From the NCBI RefSeq assembly GCF_003334405.1, contig NZ_QOWM01000027.1: a DNA stretch of 35,140 nt; one strand, given 5' to 3'. Within the stretch, counting starts at the first letter, position 1, and each line of letters starts with the position of its first letter. Under the pieces are notes generated by a model. The model was not told the origin of the DNA. It searched no databases and saw nothing but the letters and a program-made list of their open reading frames with translations. Of this stretch, positions 6,513 to 25,562 are shown in pieces. Both the position numbers and the translations under genes were made by a program. This DNA comes from Escherichia coli (GTDB taxonomy: Bacteria; Pseudomonadota; Gammaproteobacteria; Enterobacterales; Enterobacteriaceae).

Positions 6513-6653
6513 TTCAGTACCTCACGACTCGGACAAAATGTCGTTGCGCGCACAGTACAGCGCAACTTATTTTGTTAAAAACATGTAAATGATTTTTTAT
6601 TGTGCGCTCAGTATAGGAAGGGTGTTTTCGGCTACAATCAAAACATGCCCGAA

Positions 6654-6670
6654 TGTGCACCAGGTGCACC
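6654..6670. promoter_or_regulatory. MhpR operator (17-bp palindrome) in the mhpR-mhpA divergent control region
   Basis: TGTGCACCAGGTGCACC, whose reverse complement is GGTGCACCTGGTGCACA; ~145 bp upstream of the mhpA start codon and upstream of the mhpR start at 6703. Confidence 0.6.
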
Positions 6671-6702
6671 ACGTTGTTTTAACTATAGAAATGTCAATTA
6701 AT

Positions 6703-7536
6703 ATGCAGAACAATGAGCAGACGGAATACAAAACCGTGCGCGGCTTAACCCGCGGTCTAATGTTATTAAATATGTTAAATAAACTTGATGGCGGTGCCAG
6801 CGTCGGGCTGCTGGCGGAACTCAGCGGCCTGCATCGCACCACTGTGCGGCGACTGCTGGAGACGCTGCAGGAAGAGGGATATGTCCGCCGTAGCCCCTCC
6901 GATGATAGTTTTCGACTGACCATCAAAGTGCGGCAATTAAGCGAAGGATTTCGTGACGAACAGTGGATTTCTGCACGGGCCGCCCCACTGCTGGGCGATC
7001 TGTTGCGCGAAGTGGTATGGCCGACAGATGTGTCCACGCTGGATGTTGATGCAATGGTGGTACGCGAAACCACTCACCGTTTCAGCCGCTTATCCTTTCA
7101 CCGGGCAATGGTCGGGCGACGTTTGCCGCTTCTGAAAACCGCCTCGGGCCTGACCTGGCTGGCCTTTTGCCCGGAACAAGACCGCAAGGAATTAATCGAA
7201 ATGTTAGCCTCCCGCCCCGGTGATGACTATCAACTGGCACGGGAACCGTTAAAGCTGGAAGCCATTCTGGCGCGCGCGCGCAAAGAGGGTTACGGACAGA
7301 ACTACCGCGGCTGGGATCAGGAGGAGAAGATCGCCTCTATCGCCGTACCGCTGCGCAGTGAACAACGGGTGATTGGCTGTCTGAATCTGGTGTATATGGC
7401 GAGCGCAATGACCATTGAACAGGCAGCGGAAAAGCATCTTCCGGCGCTACAACGGGTAGCAAAACAGATCGAAGAAGGGGTTGAATCGCAGGCTATTCTG
7501 GTGGCCGGAAGGCGAAGCGGCATGCATTTACGTTGA
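6703..7536 (+). CDS. mhpR: IclR-family transcriptional activator of the mhp operon
   Basis: ORF-track entry starts at 6589 (315 aa) but the recognised 277-aa protein begins MQNNEQTEYKTVRGLTRG at ATG 6703; the longer ORF would read through the MhpR operator. Confidence 0.88.
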   Translation: MQNNEQTEYKTVRGLTRGLMLLNMLNKLDGGASVGLLAELSGLHRTTVRRLLETLQEEGYVRRSPSDDSFRLTIKVRQLSEGFRDEQWISARAAPLLGDLLREVVWPTDVSTLDVDAMVVRETTHRFSRLSFHRAMVGRRLPLLKTASGLTWLAFCPEQDRKELIEMLASRPGDDYQLAREPLKLEAILARARKEGYGQNYRGWDQEEKIASIAVPLRSEQRVIGCLNLVYMASAMTIEQAAEKHLPALQRVAKQIEEGVESQAILVAGRRSGMHLR

Positions 7537-7612
7537 CACCATCGAATGGCGCAAAACCTTTCGCGGTATGGCATGATAGCGCCCGGAAGAGAGTCAATTC
7601 AGGGTGGTGAAT

Positions 7613-8695
7613 GTGAAACCAGTAACGTTATACGATGTCGCAGAGTATGCCGGTGTCTCTTATCAGACCGTTTCCCGCGTGGTGAACCAGGCCAGCCACG
7701 TTTCTGCGAAAACGCGGGAAAAAGTGGAAGCGGCGATGGCGGAGCTGAATTACATTCCCAACCGCGTGGCACAACAACTGGCGGGCAAACAGTCGTTGCT
7801 GATTGGCGTTGCCACCTCCAGTCTGGCCCTGCACGCGCCGTCGCAAATTGTCGCGGCGATTAAATCTCGCGCCGATCAACTGGGTGCCAGCGTGGTGGTG
7901 TCGATGGTAGAACGAAGCGGCGTCGAAGCCTGTAAAGCGGCGGTGCACAATCTTCTCGCGCAACGCGTCAGTGGGCTGATCATTAACTATCCGCTGGATG
8001 ACCAGGATGCCATTGCTGTGGAAGCTGCCTGCACTAATGTTCCGGCGTTATTTCTTGATGTCTCTGACCAGACACCCATCAACAGTATTATTTTCTCCCA
8101 TGAAGACGGTACGCGACTGGGCGTGGAGCATCTGGTCGCATTGGGTCACCAGCAAATCGCGCTGTTAGCGGGCCCATTAAGTTCTGTCTCGGCGCGTCTG
8201 CGTCTGGCTGGCTGGCATAAATATCTCACTCGCAATCAAATTCAGCCGATAGCGGAACGGGAAGGCGACTGGAGTGCCATGTCCGGTTTTCAACAAACCA
8301 TGCAAATGCTGAATGAGGGCATCGTTCCCACTGCGATGCTGGTTGCCAACGATCAGATGGCGCTGGGCGCAATGCGCGCCATTACCGAGTCCGGGCTGCG
8401 CGTTGGTGCGGATATCTCGGTAGTGGGATACGACGATACCGAAGACAGCTCATGTTATATCCCGCCGTTAACCACCATCAAACAGGATTTTCGCCTGCTG
8501 GGGCAAACCAGCGTGGACCGCTTGCTGCAACTCTCTCAGGGCCAGGCGGTGAAGGGCAATCAGCTGTTGCCCGTCTCACTGGTGAAAAGAAAAACCACCC
8601 TGGCGCCCAATACGCAAACCGCCTCTCCCCGCGCGTTGGCCGATTCATTAATGCAGCTGGCACGACAGGTTTCCCGACTGGAAAGCGGGCAGTGA
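7613..8695 (+). CDS. lacI: Lactose operon repressor
   Basis: GTG start (gtgaaaccagtaacgttatacgatgtc) giving VKPVTLYDVAEYAGVSYQTVSRVVNQ..., 360 aa, ends ...RLESGQ; lacI promoter -35 is wild-type GCGCAA (not lacIq). Confidence 0.97.
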   Translation: MKPVTLYDVAEYAGVSYQTVSRVVNQASHVSAKTREKVEAAMAELNYIPNRVAQQLAGKQSLLIGVATSSLALHAPSQIVAAIKSRADQLGASVVVSMVERSGVEACKAAVHNLLAQRVSGLIINYPLDDQDAIAVEAACTNVPALFLDVSDQTPINSIIFSHEDGTRLGVEHLVALGHQQIALLAGPLSSVSARLRLAGWHKYLTRNQIQPIAEREGDWSAMSGFQQTMQMLNEGIVPTAMLVANDQMALGAMRAITESGLRVGADISVVGYDDTEDSSCYIPPLTTIKQDFRLLGQTSVDRLLQLSQGQAVKGNQLLPVSLVKRKTTLAPNTQTASPRALADSLMQLARQVSRLESGQ

Positions 8696-8708
8696 GCGCA
8701 ACGCAATT
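8688..8708. promoter_or_regulatory. lac auxiliary operator O3
   Basis: ggcagtgagcgcaacgcaatt overlapping the lacI stop codon. Confidence 0.8.
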
Positions 8709-8728
8709 AATGTGAGTTAGCTCACTCA
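8707..8728. promoter_or_regulatory. CAP (CRP-cAMP) binding site of the lac promoter
   Basis: ttaatgtgagttagctcactca with TGTGA ... TCACT half-sites. Confidence 0.85.
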
Positions 8729-8743
8729 TTAGGCACCCCAGGC

Positions 8744-8773
8744 TTTACACTTTATGCTTCCGGCTCGTATGTT
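8744..8773 (+). promoter_or_regulatory. lac promoter: -35 TTTACA (8744..8749), -10 TATGTT (8768..8773)
   Basis: ggctttacactttatgcttccggctcgtatgtt; -10 is wild-type TATGTT (not lacUV5 TATAAT). Confidence 0.9.
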
Positions 8774-8779
8774 GTGTGA

Positions 8780-11892
<3,113 letters not shown>

Positions 11893-11898
11893 TAATAA

Positions 11899-13197
<1,299 letters not shown>

Positions 13198-13262: not shown

Positions 13263-13874
13263 TTGAACATGCCAATGACCGAAAGAATAAGAGCAGGCAA
13301 GCTATTTACCGATATGTGCGAAGGCTTACCGGAAAAAAGACTTCGTGGGAAAACGTTAATGTATGAGTTTAATCACTCGCATCCATCAGAAGTTGAAAAA
13401 AGAGAAAGCCTGATTAAAGAAATGTTTGCCACGGTAGGGGAAAACGCCTGGGTAGAACCGCCTGTCTATTTCTCTTACGGTTCCAACATCCATATAGGCC
13501 GCAATTTTTATGCAAATTTCAATTTAACCATTGTCGATGACTACACGGTAACAATCGGTGATAACGTACTGATTGCACCCAACGTTACTCTTTCCGTTAC
13601 GGGACACCCTGTACACCATGAATTGAGAAAAAACGGCGAGATGTACTCTTTTCCGATAACGATTGGCAATAACGTCTGGATCGGAAGTCATGTGGTTATT
13701 AATCCAGGCGTCACCATCGGGGATAATTCTGTTATTGGCGCGGGTAGTATCGTCACAAAAGACATTCCACCAAACGTCGTGGCGGCTGGCGTTCCTTGTC
13801 GGGTTATTCGCGAAATAAACGACCGGGATAAGCACTATTATTTCAAAGATTATAAAGTTGAATCGTCAGTTTAA
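13263..13874 (+). CDS. lacA: Galactoside O-acetyltransferase (thiogalactoside transacetylase)
   Basis: TTG start (ttgaacatgccaatgacc) giving MNMPMTERIRAGKLFTDMCEGLPEKRLRGK..., 203 aa, hexapeptide-repeat acyltransferase; ORF-track entry is over-extended to 13212. Confidence 0.93.
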   Translation: MNMPMTERIRAGKLFTDMCEGLPEKRLRGKTLMYEFNHSHPSEVEKRESLIKEMFATVGENAWVEPPVYFSYGSNIHIGRNFYANFNLTIVDDYTVTIGDNVLIAPNVTLSVTGHPVHHELRKNGEMYSFPITIGNNVWIGSHVVINPGVTIGDNSVIGAGSIVTKDIPPNVVAAGVPCRVIREINDRDKHYYFKDYKVESSV

Positions 13875-16432: not shown

Positions 16433-17332
16433 ATGCTCTCTCGACATATCAATTATTTTCTTGCCGTGGCTGAACATGGCAGCTTCACCCGTGCCGCCAG
16501 TGCGTTGCACGTCTCCCAACCTGCGCTTTCCCAGCAGATTCGCCAGTTAGAGGAGAGTTTAGGCGTGCCGCTGTTTGACCGTAGCGGGCGAACGATTCGT
16601 CTCACTGATGCAGGAGAAGTCTGGCGACAGTACGCCAGCCGGGCGTTACAGGAACTGGGGGCGGGTAAACGGGCGATTCATGATGTTGCCGATCTGACGC
16701 GAGGATCGCTGCGTATCGCCGTCACCCCCACCTTTACGAGCTACTTTATCGGCCCCTTAATGGCGGATTTCTATGCGCGCTATCCCAGCATCACGCTCCA
16801 GCTACAGGAAATGTCGCAGGAGAAAATCGAGGATATGCTTTGCCGCGACGAGTTGGACGTTGGGATTGCCTTCGCGCCTGTGCATTCGCCGGAGCTGGAG
16901 GCAATTCCTTTACTGACAGAAAGTTTAGCGTTAGTCGTGGCGCAACATCATCCGCTGGCCGTCCATGAACAGGTGGCGTTGAGTCGCTTGCATGATGAAA
17001 AACTGGTCCTGCTCAGCGCGGAATTTGCCACCAGAGAGCAAATTGACCACTACTGCGAGAAAGCGGGGCTACATCCACAGGTGGTCATTGAGGCGAACTC
17101 AATTAGCGCGGTTCTGGAGCTGATTCGCCGCACTTCCCTTTCCACATTGTTACCAGCAGCGATTGCCACACAACATGACGGGCTTAAAGCTATTTCTCTT
17201 GCCCCGCCACTACTGGAGAGAACGGCGGTTTTGTTGCGGCGGAAAAATAGCTGGCAGACAGCCGCCGCGAAGGCATTTTTGCACATGGCGTTGGATAAAT
17301 GCGCGGTTGTTGGCGGAAATGAATCACGGTAG
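16433..17332 (+). CDS. cynR: LysR-family transcriptional activator of the cyn operon
   Basis: Recognised 299-aa protein starts [41 protein letters not shown] (HTH) at ATG 16433; ORF-track entry is over-extended to 16349; divergent from cynT. Confidence 0.9.
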
Positions 17333-17848
17333 CCGCTGACACAGGTCTGCGGCTGGAATTGCCTGATGCGCTACGCTTATCAGGCCTACGAGTTCAGTGC
17401 TCTACGTAGGCCGGATAAGGCGTTCACGCCGCATCCGGCATAAACTACAGCTGGCAGACAGCCGCTGCGAAGGCATTTTTGCACATGGCGTTGGAGGAAT
17501 GCGCGGTTGTTGGCGGGAATGAATCACGGTAGCCGCTGACACAGATCAGCGGCTGGAATTGCCTGATGCGCTACGCTTATCAGGCCTACGAGTTCAGTGC
17601 TCTACGTAGGCCGGATAAGGCGTTCACGCCGCATCCGGCATAAACTACAGCTGGCAGACAGCCGCTGCGAAGGCATTTTTGCACATGGCGTTGGAGGAAT
17701 GCGCGGTTGTTGGCGGGAATGAATCACGGTAGCCGCTGACACAGATCAGCGGCTGGAATTGCCTGATGCGCTACGCTTATCAGGCCTACGAGTTCAGTGC
17801 TCTACGTAGGCCGGATAAGGCGTTCACGCCGCATCCGGCATAAACTAA
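17249..17848. repeat. Three tandem 200-bp repeat units, each = last ~84 bp of cynR + a small hairpin + a REP pair
   Basis: ctggcagaca at 17251, 17451, 17651 and gaatcacggtagccgctgac at 17321, 17521, 17721 (period exactly 200). Units 2 and 3 are identical; unit 1 (the functional cynR 3' end) differs at ~7 positions. Confidence 0.9.
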
Positions 17849-17868
17849 GCTCGCTGTAACCCAGTCGT

Positions 17869-20636: not shown

Positions 20637-22522
20637 CTACTCTTCCATCGCCTGGCGGATCTGATCCAACGACGCAGGATCATCAATGGTCGTCAGATCT
20701 CCAGGATCGCGTCCTTCGCAAATCGCCTGGATCGTGCGGCGCAGCATTTTTCCGGATCGCGTTTTTGGCAATTGCGAGACAAACCAGACGTGCGCCGGGC
20801 GGCCAAAGTTGCCAATCTGGCTGTCCACCAGCGCCATAATCGCCTTCTCTTGCGAGTGCGCCACATCACGATCTTCCAGACTGTCGCTCTCTTTCGGAAT
20901 GACAAACGCCACCGCCACCTGCCCTTTCAGCGCATCTTTCACCCCAACCACCGCCACTTCGGCAACGCCCGGATGGCTGGAGATACTCTCTTCAATCTCG
21001 CGCGTCCCCAGCCGATGCCCGGCAACGTTAATTACATCGTCAGTGCGCCCGAGAATAAAGTGATAACCGTCAGCGTCACGGATGCCCCAGTCAAAGGTGG
21101 CGTACACCGGGCGGGAAAACAGCGACCAGTAAGTCTTCACAAAGCGGCCGTCGTCGCCCCAGATGGTCTGAATACACCCCGGCGGCAGCGGCCCTTCCAC
21201 CACCAGCATCCCTTTCTCGTTGACGCCACACGGTTCGCCGGTGACTTCATTAAGCAACTGCACGTTATAGCCATACATCGGCACACCGGGGCTTCCCAGA
21301 CGCGTCGGCCTGTCGTCCAGACCGCGAGCAATCGCCATAATCGGCCAGCCGGATTCGGTCTGCCAGTAGTTGTCGATGACCGGCACATCCAGCGTATTGC
21401 TCACCCAACTGGCGGTCGGCTCGTCCAGCGGTTCTCCAGCCAGATAGAGCACTTCCAGCGACGAGAGATCGTGTTTGCGAATTTCAGCGGTAGGGAATTT
21501 TTTCAGCACGCGAATGGCGGTCGGCGCTGAGAACATCCGGCTAACCTGATATTTCTCGACGATTTTCCACCACACGCCGCAGTCCGGCCAGGTCGGCAAT
21601 CCTTCGTAAACGATAGTCGCCATCCCCGCCAGCAGCGGCGCGTAAACGATATACGAATGCCCCACCACCCAGCCGATATCCGATGCGCAAAAGAACACGC
21701 TGCCCGCTTTGCCGCCAAAAATGGTGTCCATCGAGGTCGCCAGCGCCACCGCATATCCGCCGACGTCACGCTGCACGCCTTTAGGTTTGCCGGTCGTGCC
21801 GGAAGTGTAGAGAATGCAGGAGGTTTCGTTGGATTCCAGCCACGCCACCGGTACCCGCGCGCCGATGTGTTGATGGCGCAACGACGCGAAATCGACATCC
21901 CGCCCGCTGACGCGCGCCATTTTCGCCAGCCCGCGATCCACCAGCAAAACATGGCGTGGCTGGTGCTGCGCCTGACTTATCGCATCGTCGAGCAATTTTT
22001 ATAGGGAATGATTTTGCCACCGCGCGCTCCGGCATCAGCCGAGACAATCAGCACCGGTTTAGCGTCATCAATTCGCGCCGCCACGCTGTGCGAGGCAAAT
22101 CCACCAAACACCACCGAGTGAATAGCGCCAATGCGCGCGCAGGCCAGCAGAGTAATATGCGCTTCGGCAATCATCGGCATATACACCAGCACCCGATCGC
22201 CGCGCTGCACACCCAATGAACGCAACATTGAGGCCACCGCGTTCACTTCGTCATGCAGCTGACGAAAGGTAAAGGTGCGCTCTTCTTCTGTTTCCGAAGA
22301 GACGGCAATCAGCGCCAGCGCCTCTGGCTGTTTCTCCAGCCAGCGGTCGATGGCGTTGTGGCACAAGTTGGTTCGGCCTTCACAAAACCAACGGGCAAAC
22401 GGCGGATTGCTGTGATCGAGCGTTTGCGTAAAGGGCGTCTGCCAGTCAATACGCCGGGCCTGCTCGGCCCAGAACTGCTCCGGTTCGTTAATCGAACGCT
22501 GATAAAATTCGCTAAAAGACAT
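20637..22522 (-). pseudogene. prpE: Propionyl-CoA synthetase gene interrupted by a frameshift (two ORFs: 21977..22522 and 20637..21995)
   Basis: N-terminal ORF MSFSEFYQRSINEPEQFWAEQARR... ends ...GGKIIPYKNCSTMR-stop; the downstream ORF continues LDDAISQAQHQPRHVLLVDRG... with the AMP-binding motif YTSGTTGKPKG. The frames differ by one nucleotide at an A5 run (T5 at 21996..22000 on +). Confidence 0.8.
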
Positions 22523-25216: not shown

Positions 25217-25257
25217 GTTGTCCTCGTCATTGTTATCATTTGTAGGGTCGAGATTGT

Positions 25258-25536
25258 TGTCGGATGCGACGCTATGCGTCTTATCCGACCTACAGTTCAG
25301 TTCACCCCGTAGGCCTGATAAGTCGCGTCAGCGGCGCATCAGGCATCGGTTGTCGGATGCGACGCTATGCGTCTTATCCGACCTACAGTTCAGTGCACCC
25401 CGTAGGCCTGATAAGTCACGTCAGCGGCGCATCAGGCATCGGTTGTCGGATGCGACGCCATCCGTCTTATCCGACCTACAGTTCAGTGCACCTCGTAGGC
25501 CTGATAAGTCGCGTCAGCGACGCATCAGGCATCGGC
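25258..25536. repeat. REP/BIME array: three tandem 93-bp units in the prpC-prpB spacer
   Basis: tgtcggatgcgacgc at 25258, 25351, 25444; each unit carries two REP palindromes (ggatgcgacgctatgcgtcttatccgacctac / gtaggcctgataagtcgcgtcagcggcgcatcaggc); units differ at a few positions. Confidence 0.9.
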
Positions 25537-25562
25537 TGTCGAATACAATCAACGGGCGTTTT

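What the first reader, a model, noticed from the sequence alone, without database searches (positions are those of the whole stretch)
8779..8779. Single-base difference at lac position -1 (G->A), immediately upstream of operator O1
The window reads tatgttgtgtgAaattgtgagcggataacaatt. The canonical lac promoter/operator, as I recall it from K-12 and lac-derived vectors, is TATGTTGTGTGGAATTGTGAGCGGATAACAATT. The rest of the control region is wild type (CAP site, -35 TTTACA, -10 TATGTT, O1 core, O3, O2; not lacUV5, not lacIq). The change sits at the transcription start and in the outer arm of the extended pseudo-palindrome, making the left arm (TGTGTGAAATT) a perfect mirror of the right arm (AATTTCACACA). 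It could subtly alter start-site choice or repressor contacts, or be a neutral polymorphism.
Basis: partly seen in the sequence, partly recalled or inferred. Interest (0 to 1): 0.5.

Follow-up and report, generated by a model that had tools for sequence, protein, structure and literature searches.

The report
Common natural lac promoter base variant
The A just upstream of the lac operator is the normal, ancestral base found in about 84% of complete E. coli genomes; the laboratory strain K-12 (and every cloning vector derived from it) carries the unusual G, and the difference is predicted to have almost no effect.

Summary
Window 8779 is A where K-12 MG1655 has G, at lac position -1. It is the only difference from K-12 between lacI and lacA.

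The implied direction (G->A) is reversed.
- Among 5,426 complete E. coli genomes, allele-specific searches find A in 4,463 and G in 858. T is in none, and C only in two engineered plasmids.
- Outgroup lac promoters all carry A: E. whittamii, Escherichia sp. E1V33, Citrobacter sedlakii and three Kluyvera.
- The native E. coli B (REL606) promoter is identical to the window.
- G on the K-12 haplotype appears only in K-12 laboratory strains and K-12-derived vector DNA.
- A second G lineage (ST69-type) sits on a different haplotype.

The site is already described in the BL21(DE3)/C41 literature as the "O1/+1" difference between PlacUV5 (K-12-derived) and PlacWT (B native).

The published sort-seq RNA polymerase energy matrix gives a G-to-A change of about -0.06 kBT at -1, which is negligible. 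The base also lies outside the 21-bp O1 core.

Verdict: an ordinary, already documented and probably near-neutral polymorphism. The window carries the wild-type state. Low interest.

The parts
8779..8779 (+). lac position -1: A (K-12 has G). This is the polymorphic base.
   Evidence: Allele counts.
8780..8800 (+). lac operator O1, AATTGTGAGCGGATAACAATT (+1 to +21), identical to K-12.
8773..8785 (+). Left arm of the extended operator palindrome, TGTGTGAAATTGT. It is a perfect mirror of the right arm only with A at 8779.
8795..8807 (+). Right arm of the extended operator palindrome, ACAATTTCACACA.
8768..8773 (+). lac P1 -10 hexamer TATGTT (wild type, not lacUV5 TATAAT).
8744..8749 (+). lac P1 -35 hexamer TTTACA.
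   Evidence: identical to K-12.
8709..8730 (+). CRP (CAP) site AATGTGAGTTAGCTCACTCATT, wild type (not L8).
8688..8708 (+). Auxiliary operator O3.
9181..9201 (+). Auxiliary operator O2, inside lacZ.
7613..8695 (+). lacI. Coordinates mapped from K-12 b0345; sequence identical to K-12.
8818..11892 (+). lacZ, identical to K-12.
11944..13197 (+). lacY, identical to K-12.
13263..13874 (+). lacA. Coordinates mapped from K-12 b0342; sequence identical to K-12.

Best explanation
Window 8779 carries the ancestral, majority E. coli allele (A) at lac position -1. The window comes from a natural E. coli strain whose lac region is almost identical to K-12. The G in K-12, and so in every lac-derived vector, lacUV5, tac and T7lac construct, is a derived substitution specific to the K-12 lineage. 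An independent A->G change exists on a different haplotype (ST69-type). The base lies one position outside the 21-bp O1 core and six bases downstream of the -10 hexamer. The A/G difference is inferred to be selectively and functionally near-neutral. It should change RNA polymerase binding by well under 0.1 kBT, should not change LacI base contacts, and is absent from the main (+1) transcript. At most, the minor -1 start would use ATP instead of GTP.
For: Shown here:
- The only difference from MG1655 across lacI to lacA is 8779.
- Allele-specific 55-mer searches, in which every 28-base seed must include the site, give A in 4,463 genomes, G in 858, T in 0, and C only in 2 engineered plasmids, out of 5,426. 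The empty T search validates the design.
- About 2,200 records match the window's 161-nt control region exactly.
- Native lac promoters of the E. coli GTDB representative, Escherichia sp. E1V33, E. whittamii, Citrobacter sedlakii and three Kluyvera all have A at -1. Every TATGTTGTGTGG hit outside Enterobacterales is vector contamination.
- A is also present in B2 (ATCC 25922), O157:H7, O103:H2 and B (REL606).
- All 60 best exact matches to the K-12 G haplotype are K-12 laboratory strains.
- The REL606 native promoter equals the window. The DE3 lacUV5 copy differs from it at exactly four sites, including -1 G.

From the literature:
- The same site is reported as the O1/+1 difference between PlacUV5 and PlacWT in BL21(DE3), converted by recombination in C41(DE3) (PMC5306230; PMC4632034).
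- The sort-seq RNAP energy matrix has A = -0.253 and G = -0.190 kBT at -1 (PMC3521663 Text S2).
- A survey of 91 strains found natural lac promoter SNPs change binding energies by less than 1 kBT (bioRxiv 10.1101/003772).

Inferred: near-neutrality for LacI binding, and the effect on start-site use.
Against: No direct measurement isolates this base. PlacWeak and PlacWT comparisons in the BL21 literature confound it with the L8 and -10 changes. The sort-seq matrix was inferred without LacI, and its model error (about 1 kBT) exceeds the predicted effect, so a small effect is not excluded. Only purines are seen at -1 in about 5,300 genomes. That could be weak constraint rather than transition bias, although the matrix slightly favours T. 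The A allele does create a perfect 13-bp inverted repeat around O1, so an effect on flanking or phosphate contacts or on DNA shape is conceivable.
Confidence: 0.88

Rival explanations
1. The A/G base at -1 is a functional regulatory variant. The A allele completes a perfect 13-bp palindrome and so tightens LacI binding, or it shifts start-site choice or initiating-nucleotide use. Ancestral-type strains would then repress or induce lac measurably differently from K-12.
For: The arms are perfect only with A. The C41/C43 literature lists this base among the three SNPs that weaken T7 RNAP expression. Only purines occur at the site. lac regulation does vary among natural isolates (PMC6851279).
Against: The position is outside the 21-bp O1 core used in LacI energy matrices. 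The RNAP matrix difference is 0.06 kBT. G has arisen at least twice and reached about 11% of non-K-12 genomes with no sign of cost. The variation among isolates was attributed largely to trans background rather than lac cis polymorphisms. In C41 the weakening is explained by the -10 reversion together with the retained L8 site.
Confidence: 0.08
2. A new mutation, or a sequencing or assembly error, in an otherwise K-12 genome.
For: The window differs from MG1655 by only about 10 point differences in 35 kb. One of these is a homopolymer indel that could be an error.
Against: The same base is present in 4,463 genomes and in all outgroups. The window also differs from K-12 in repeat copy numbers and other SNPs, and it matches a natural seawater isolate (MB07152) at 100.0% over 25 kb. 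It is therefore a natural relative of K-12 and not K-12 itself.
Confidence: 0.02
3. A short gene-conversion tract imported A from another strain into a K-12-like (G) background.
For: Recombination at exactly this site is documented between the two lac promoter copies in BL21(DE3).
Against: This needs G to be ancestral for the haplotype. REL606 and roughly 2,200 records share the identical 161-nt haplotype with A, while G on that haplotype is seen only in K-12 laboratory strains. No flanking imported SNPs are present.
Confidence: 0.02

Closest known systems
Wild-type lac promoter/operator of E. coli B (called 'PlacWT' in the BL21(DE3)/C41(DE3) literature)
   Same: Identical over the whole lacI-lacZ intergenic control region, including A at -1.
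   Different: Nothing differs in the control region. Across the first 17.6 kb of the window, the surrounding genome differs from REL606 by 0.5% and from K-12 by 0.02%.
Canonical K-12 lac promoter/operator (MG1655, pUC and lac-derived vectors)
   Same: CAP site, -35, -10, O1, O2, O3, lacI and lacZYA are all identical.
   Different: One base: G in K-12 against A here at -1. K-12 is the derived state.
lacUV5 / L8-UV5 promoter of lambda DE3, and 'PlacWeak' of C41(DE3)/C43(DE3)
   Same: Same locus. The -1 base is one of the four differences between DE3 PlacUV5 and the native B promoter, and one of the three sites converted in PlacWeak.
   Different: The window has the wild-type -10 hexamer (TATGTT) and a wild-type CAP site. 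It is neither UV5 nor L8.
Operator-constitutive (Oc) mutations of lac O1
   Same: A single-base change close to O1.
   Different: From established knowledge, Oc changes lie inside the contacted core of O1 and weaken LacI binding. This base is outside the 21-bp core and is the ancestral state.

Membership tests
Wild-type E. coli lac control region (lacP1 with O1, O2 and O3) | CAP site, -35 TTTACA, -10 TATGTT and O1 at +1..+21, with lacI upstream and lacZ downstream. | tested here: met
   Identical to MG1655 except at 8779.
Wild-type E. coli lac control region (lacP1 with O1, O2 and O3) | Auxiliary operators O3 (centre -82) and O2 (centre +412) present and intact. | tested here: met
   Exact matches at 8688-8708 and 9181-9201.
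Majority/ancestral -1 A haplotype (the E. coli B 'PlacWT') | A at -1 on an otherwise K-12-like control region. | tested here: met
   (identical to REL606). (2,633 records with the identical 55-mer).
lacUV5 | -10 hexamer TATAAT (GT->AA). | tested here: not met
   The window has TATGTT.
lac L8 (CAP-site mutation) | G->A in the CAP site (TGTGAG -> TGTAAG). | tested here: not met
   The window has TGTGAG.
lacIq | Up-mutation in the lacI promoter -35 region. | tested here: not met
   There is no difference from MG1655 anywhere in 7500-8695.
Oc operator mutation | Base change inside the LacI-contacted O1 core. | tested here: not met
   The O1 21-mer is exact, and the variant lies at -1, outside it.
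Oc operator mutation | Reduced LacI binding or raised basal expression. | not testable with these tools
   Needs binding or expression assays.

The most novel reading that the evidence does not exclude
The G of K-12 at -1 arose only in the K-12 lineage, possibly during its long laboratory history. It measurably alters operator flanking symmetry, LacI affinity or start-site and initiating-nucleotide use. In that case the quantitative lac parameters measured for sixty years, and all lac-derived expression vectors, would describe a derived allele and not the natural E. coli operator.
Probability: 0.07. Interest if true: 0.3.

Novelty: already known. Interest (0 to 1): 0.07.

Why it matters
It matters little biologically. 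Its use is as a calibration point: the "canonical" lac promoter/operator sequence is a minority allele of the K-12 lineage, so a difference from K-12 is not evidence of mutation. The site is also a handy one-base marker. It separates K-12-derived lac DNA (vectors, DE3, F' lac, contamination) from native lac promoters. It also explains why the "third SNP" in C41/C43 PlacWeak appears together with the -10 reversion: recombination with the native B promoter. If the base did have a small effect on repression, it would slightly shift textbook lac parameters relative to wild E. coli.

Tried and rejected
- **Sequencing error or de novo mutation:** rejected because A is in 4,463 genomes and in the outgroups.
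- **lacUV5, L8, lacIq or Oc identity:** rejected by direct comparison.
- **Pyrimidine alleles at -1:** none found in native promoters.
- **Full-text search for the A-allele string GTGTGAAATTGTGAGCGG:** returned only two papers. I did not open them; their titles concern naringenin pathway engineering and a beta-hexosaminidase, and neither is about lac variation.
- **Wagner et al. 2008 (PNAS):** I tried to retrieve it to check my recollection that it called this SNP a change making the operator "more symmetric". The paper is not held, and a phrase search found nothing. That recollection remains unverified.
- **Razo-Mejia et al. (bioRxiv 10.1101/003772):** it surveys lac promoter SNPs in 91 strains, but the per-site data are in figures that are not held, so the -1 site could not be read from it.
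- **LacI energy matrices:** from memory they cover only the 21-bp operators, so they do not address -1. This was not checked here.

Full report
**Observation**

The window reads TATGTTGTGTGAAATTGTGAGCGGATAACAATT at 8768-8800. That is one mismatch to the K-12 string, and the mismatch is at 8779.

The window is the E. coli mhp-lacI-lacZYA-cyn-cod-prp-yah region, in reverse orientation relative to K-12 coordinates. I aligned it to MG1655 (NC_000913.3). The first 17.6 kb contain only three substitutions and one indel. 8779 (A here, G in K-12) is the only difference anywhere between 7500 and 14000. The lacI promoter, lacI, O3 (8688-8708), the CAP site, -35, -10, O1, O2 (9181-9201) and lacZYA are therefore all K-12-identical.

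**How common the A is**

I used a 55-base query centred on the site. Any 28-base exact seed must then include the site, so a hit requires the same allele.

| Allele at -1 | Genomes with a hit (of 5,426 complete E. coli genomes) |
|---|---|
| A | 4,463 |
| G | 858 |
| T | 0 |
| C | 0 native; 2 partial hits on engineered plasmids |

- The empty T search validates the design.
- 5,315 genomes have the promoter at all. A therefore accounts for about 84% and G for about 16%. A few genomes hold both alleles; BL21(DE3)-type genomes would be an example, since the native B promoter has A and the DE3 copy has G.
- The window's exact 161-nt control region is the single most common haplotype, at roughly 2,200 records.

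**Which base is ancestral**

I scanned one genome per GTDB species for the exact O1 21-mer and read the flanks.
- Native lac promoters carry A at -1 in the E. coli representative, Escherichia sp. E1V33, E. whittamii, Citrobacter sedlakii and three Kluyvera species.
- Most Pectobacterium and Dickeya sites also have A.
- Every ...TATGTTGTGTGG... hit was a pUC-type fragment in an unrelated organism (Streptomyces, Pelagibacter, cyanobacteria and others). That is K-12-derived laboratory DNA.

Within E. coli, representatives ATCC 25922 (B2), O157:H7, O103:H2 and B REL606 all have A. REL606 is identical to the window over the 160 bases compared.

G occurs in two settings.
- **On the K-12 haplotype.** All 60 best exact matches are K-12 laboratory strains or their derivatives, such as MG1655, W3110, DH1, C600, J53, RR1, HMS174 and NCM3722.
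- **On a distinct haplotype (ST69 O15:H18 and similar strains, 585 records).** This haplotype differs at four other sites. Its nearest A-carrying counterpart is the Escherichia sp. E1V33 and O157-type sequence.

So A is ancestral, and A->G happened at least twice. The window's strain is a natural close relative of K-12. Its best match is the seawater isolate MB07152, at 100.0% over 25 kb. It simply retains the ancestral base.

**Already in the literature**

BL21(DE3) contains two lac promoter regions: the native B copy, and the K-12-derived L8-UV5 copy that drives T7 RNA polymerase in DE3.
- Kwon et al. 2015 (PMC4632034) report that the two 1,723-bp regions differ at four nucleotides. They also report that the C41/C43 promoter mutations ("-10 and +1 regions") arise by homologous recombination with the native promoter.

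I confirmed this directly. The DE3 copy differs from REL606, and from the window, at the CAP site (G->A), at the -10 hexamer (GT->AA) and at -1 (A->G). The window's sequence is therefore exactly what that literature calls PlacWT.

Natural lac promoter variation was also surveyed in 91 strains by Razo-Mejia et al. (bioRxiv 10.1101/003772). Observed SNPs were predicted to change binding energies by less than 1 kBT, apart from some changes in O3.

**Mechanism**

The sort-seq RNA polymerase energy matrix for the lac promoter covers -41 to -1 (Brewster et al. 2012, PMC3521663 Text S2). I checked its register: the TATAAT-preferring rows fall at -12 to -7. Its last row gives:

| Base at -1 | Energy (kBT) |
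|---|---|
| A | -0.253 |
| C | -0.240 |
| G | -0.190 |
| T | -0.313 |

G->A is therefore about -0.06 kBT, roughly a 6% predicted change. That is far below the model's own error of about 1 kBT.

The remaining points are inference from established knowledge of the lac system and were not tested here.
- The base is 11 bp from the operator dyad centre (+11). That is one position outside the 21-bp O1 core and outside the 20-bp ideal symmetric operator, so direct LacI base contacts are not expected.
- The main transcript starts at +1, so the base is not in the mRNA.
- A minor start at -1 would use ATP in place of GTP.

The population data fit neutrality: both purines persist, and G arose twice.

**Verdict**

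This is an ordinary, already documented natural allele, and the K-12 reference is the odd one out. Interest is low. The residual novel reading is that the K-12 G measurably changes repression or initiation. The data here do not exclude it, but it is unlikely.

Noticed in passing
window 6977 and 6981 (mhpR, ORF 6589..7536 +): Two substitutions 4 bp apart relative to K-12: G/T gives Arg (CGG) here against Leu (CTG) in K-12, and C/G is a silent Ala change. Apart from 8779 they are the only other point differences in the first 17.6 kb. I did not determine which strain is derived.
   Followed up: partly
window 21996 (prpE, - strand; ORFs 20637..21995 and 21977..22522): A 1-bp deletion in a T-run relative to both K-12 and REL606 splits prpE into two ORFs. 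This is either a real frameshift (a prpE pseudogene) or a homopolymer sequencing error.
   Followed up: partly
window 17249-17851, 25256-25541, 1-201: Tandem arrays in intergenic regions: period 200 with 3.0 copies between cynR and codA, period 93 with 3.1 copies between prpC and prpB, and period 101 with 2 copies after mhpE. From the alignment offsets, K-12 is 200 bp shorter at the first array and 94 bp longer at the second, which fits one unit fewer and one unit more. K-12 is also 94 bp longer near window 20,600.
   Followed up: partly
L051 (NZ_CP033020.1, E. coli ATCC 8739 assembly), lac -35/-10 spacer: The spacer reads GCCTGTCTCTTATACACGTATGTT, a net gain of 6 bp. From memory, the 15 nt CTGTCTCTTATACAC match the Tn5 mosaic-end/Nextera adaptor sequence. 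This suggests an assembly artefact or an engineered scar, not natural variation.
   Followed up: partly
L046 (NZ_AP021933.1, strain WP2-W18-ESBL-08), O1: A natural isolate carrying G at -1 together with a C->T change inside the O1 core (GTGAGTGGATAAC, position +10). This is a possible natural operator variant that might weaken repression.
   Followed up: no
L044, L045, L047 (ST69 O15:H18, CFSAN018748, turkey strain 181.1): A second, independent G-at-minus-1 lineage on a haplotype that differs from K-12 at four other control-region sites. It covers 585 records, about 11% of genomes, which shows homoplasy at this site.
   Followed up: partly
L005-L043 (GTDB species-representative genomes): About two dozen representative genomes of unrelated taxa contain pUC-lac, T7lac (pET), tac/trc or synthetic lacO promoter fragments, often on very short contigs. 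They include Streptomyces, Pelagibacter, Raphidiopsis, Lamprocystis, Psychromonas, Alicyclobacillus plasmid and several MAGs. This is vector contamination or engineered strains.
   Followed up: no
L010, L012, L014, L019, L028, L029, L031, L033 (Pectobacterium, Dickeya) and L003 (Tatumella): The exact 21-bp O1 sequence is conserved in these plant-associated Enterobacterales. It sits downstream of a different promoter (TTTACT...TATGTTATG) and upstream of what appears to be a different first gene. Such exact operator conservation across genera is notable.
   Followed up: no
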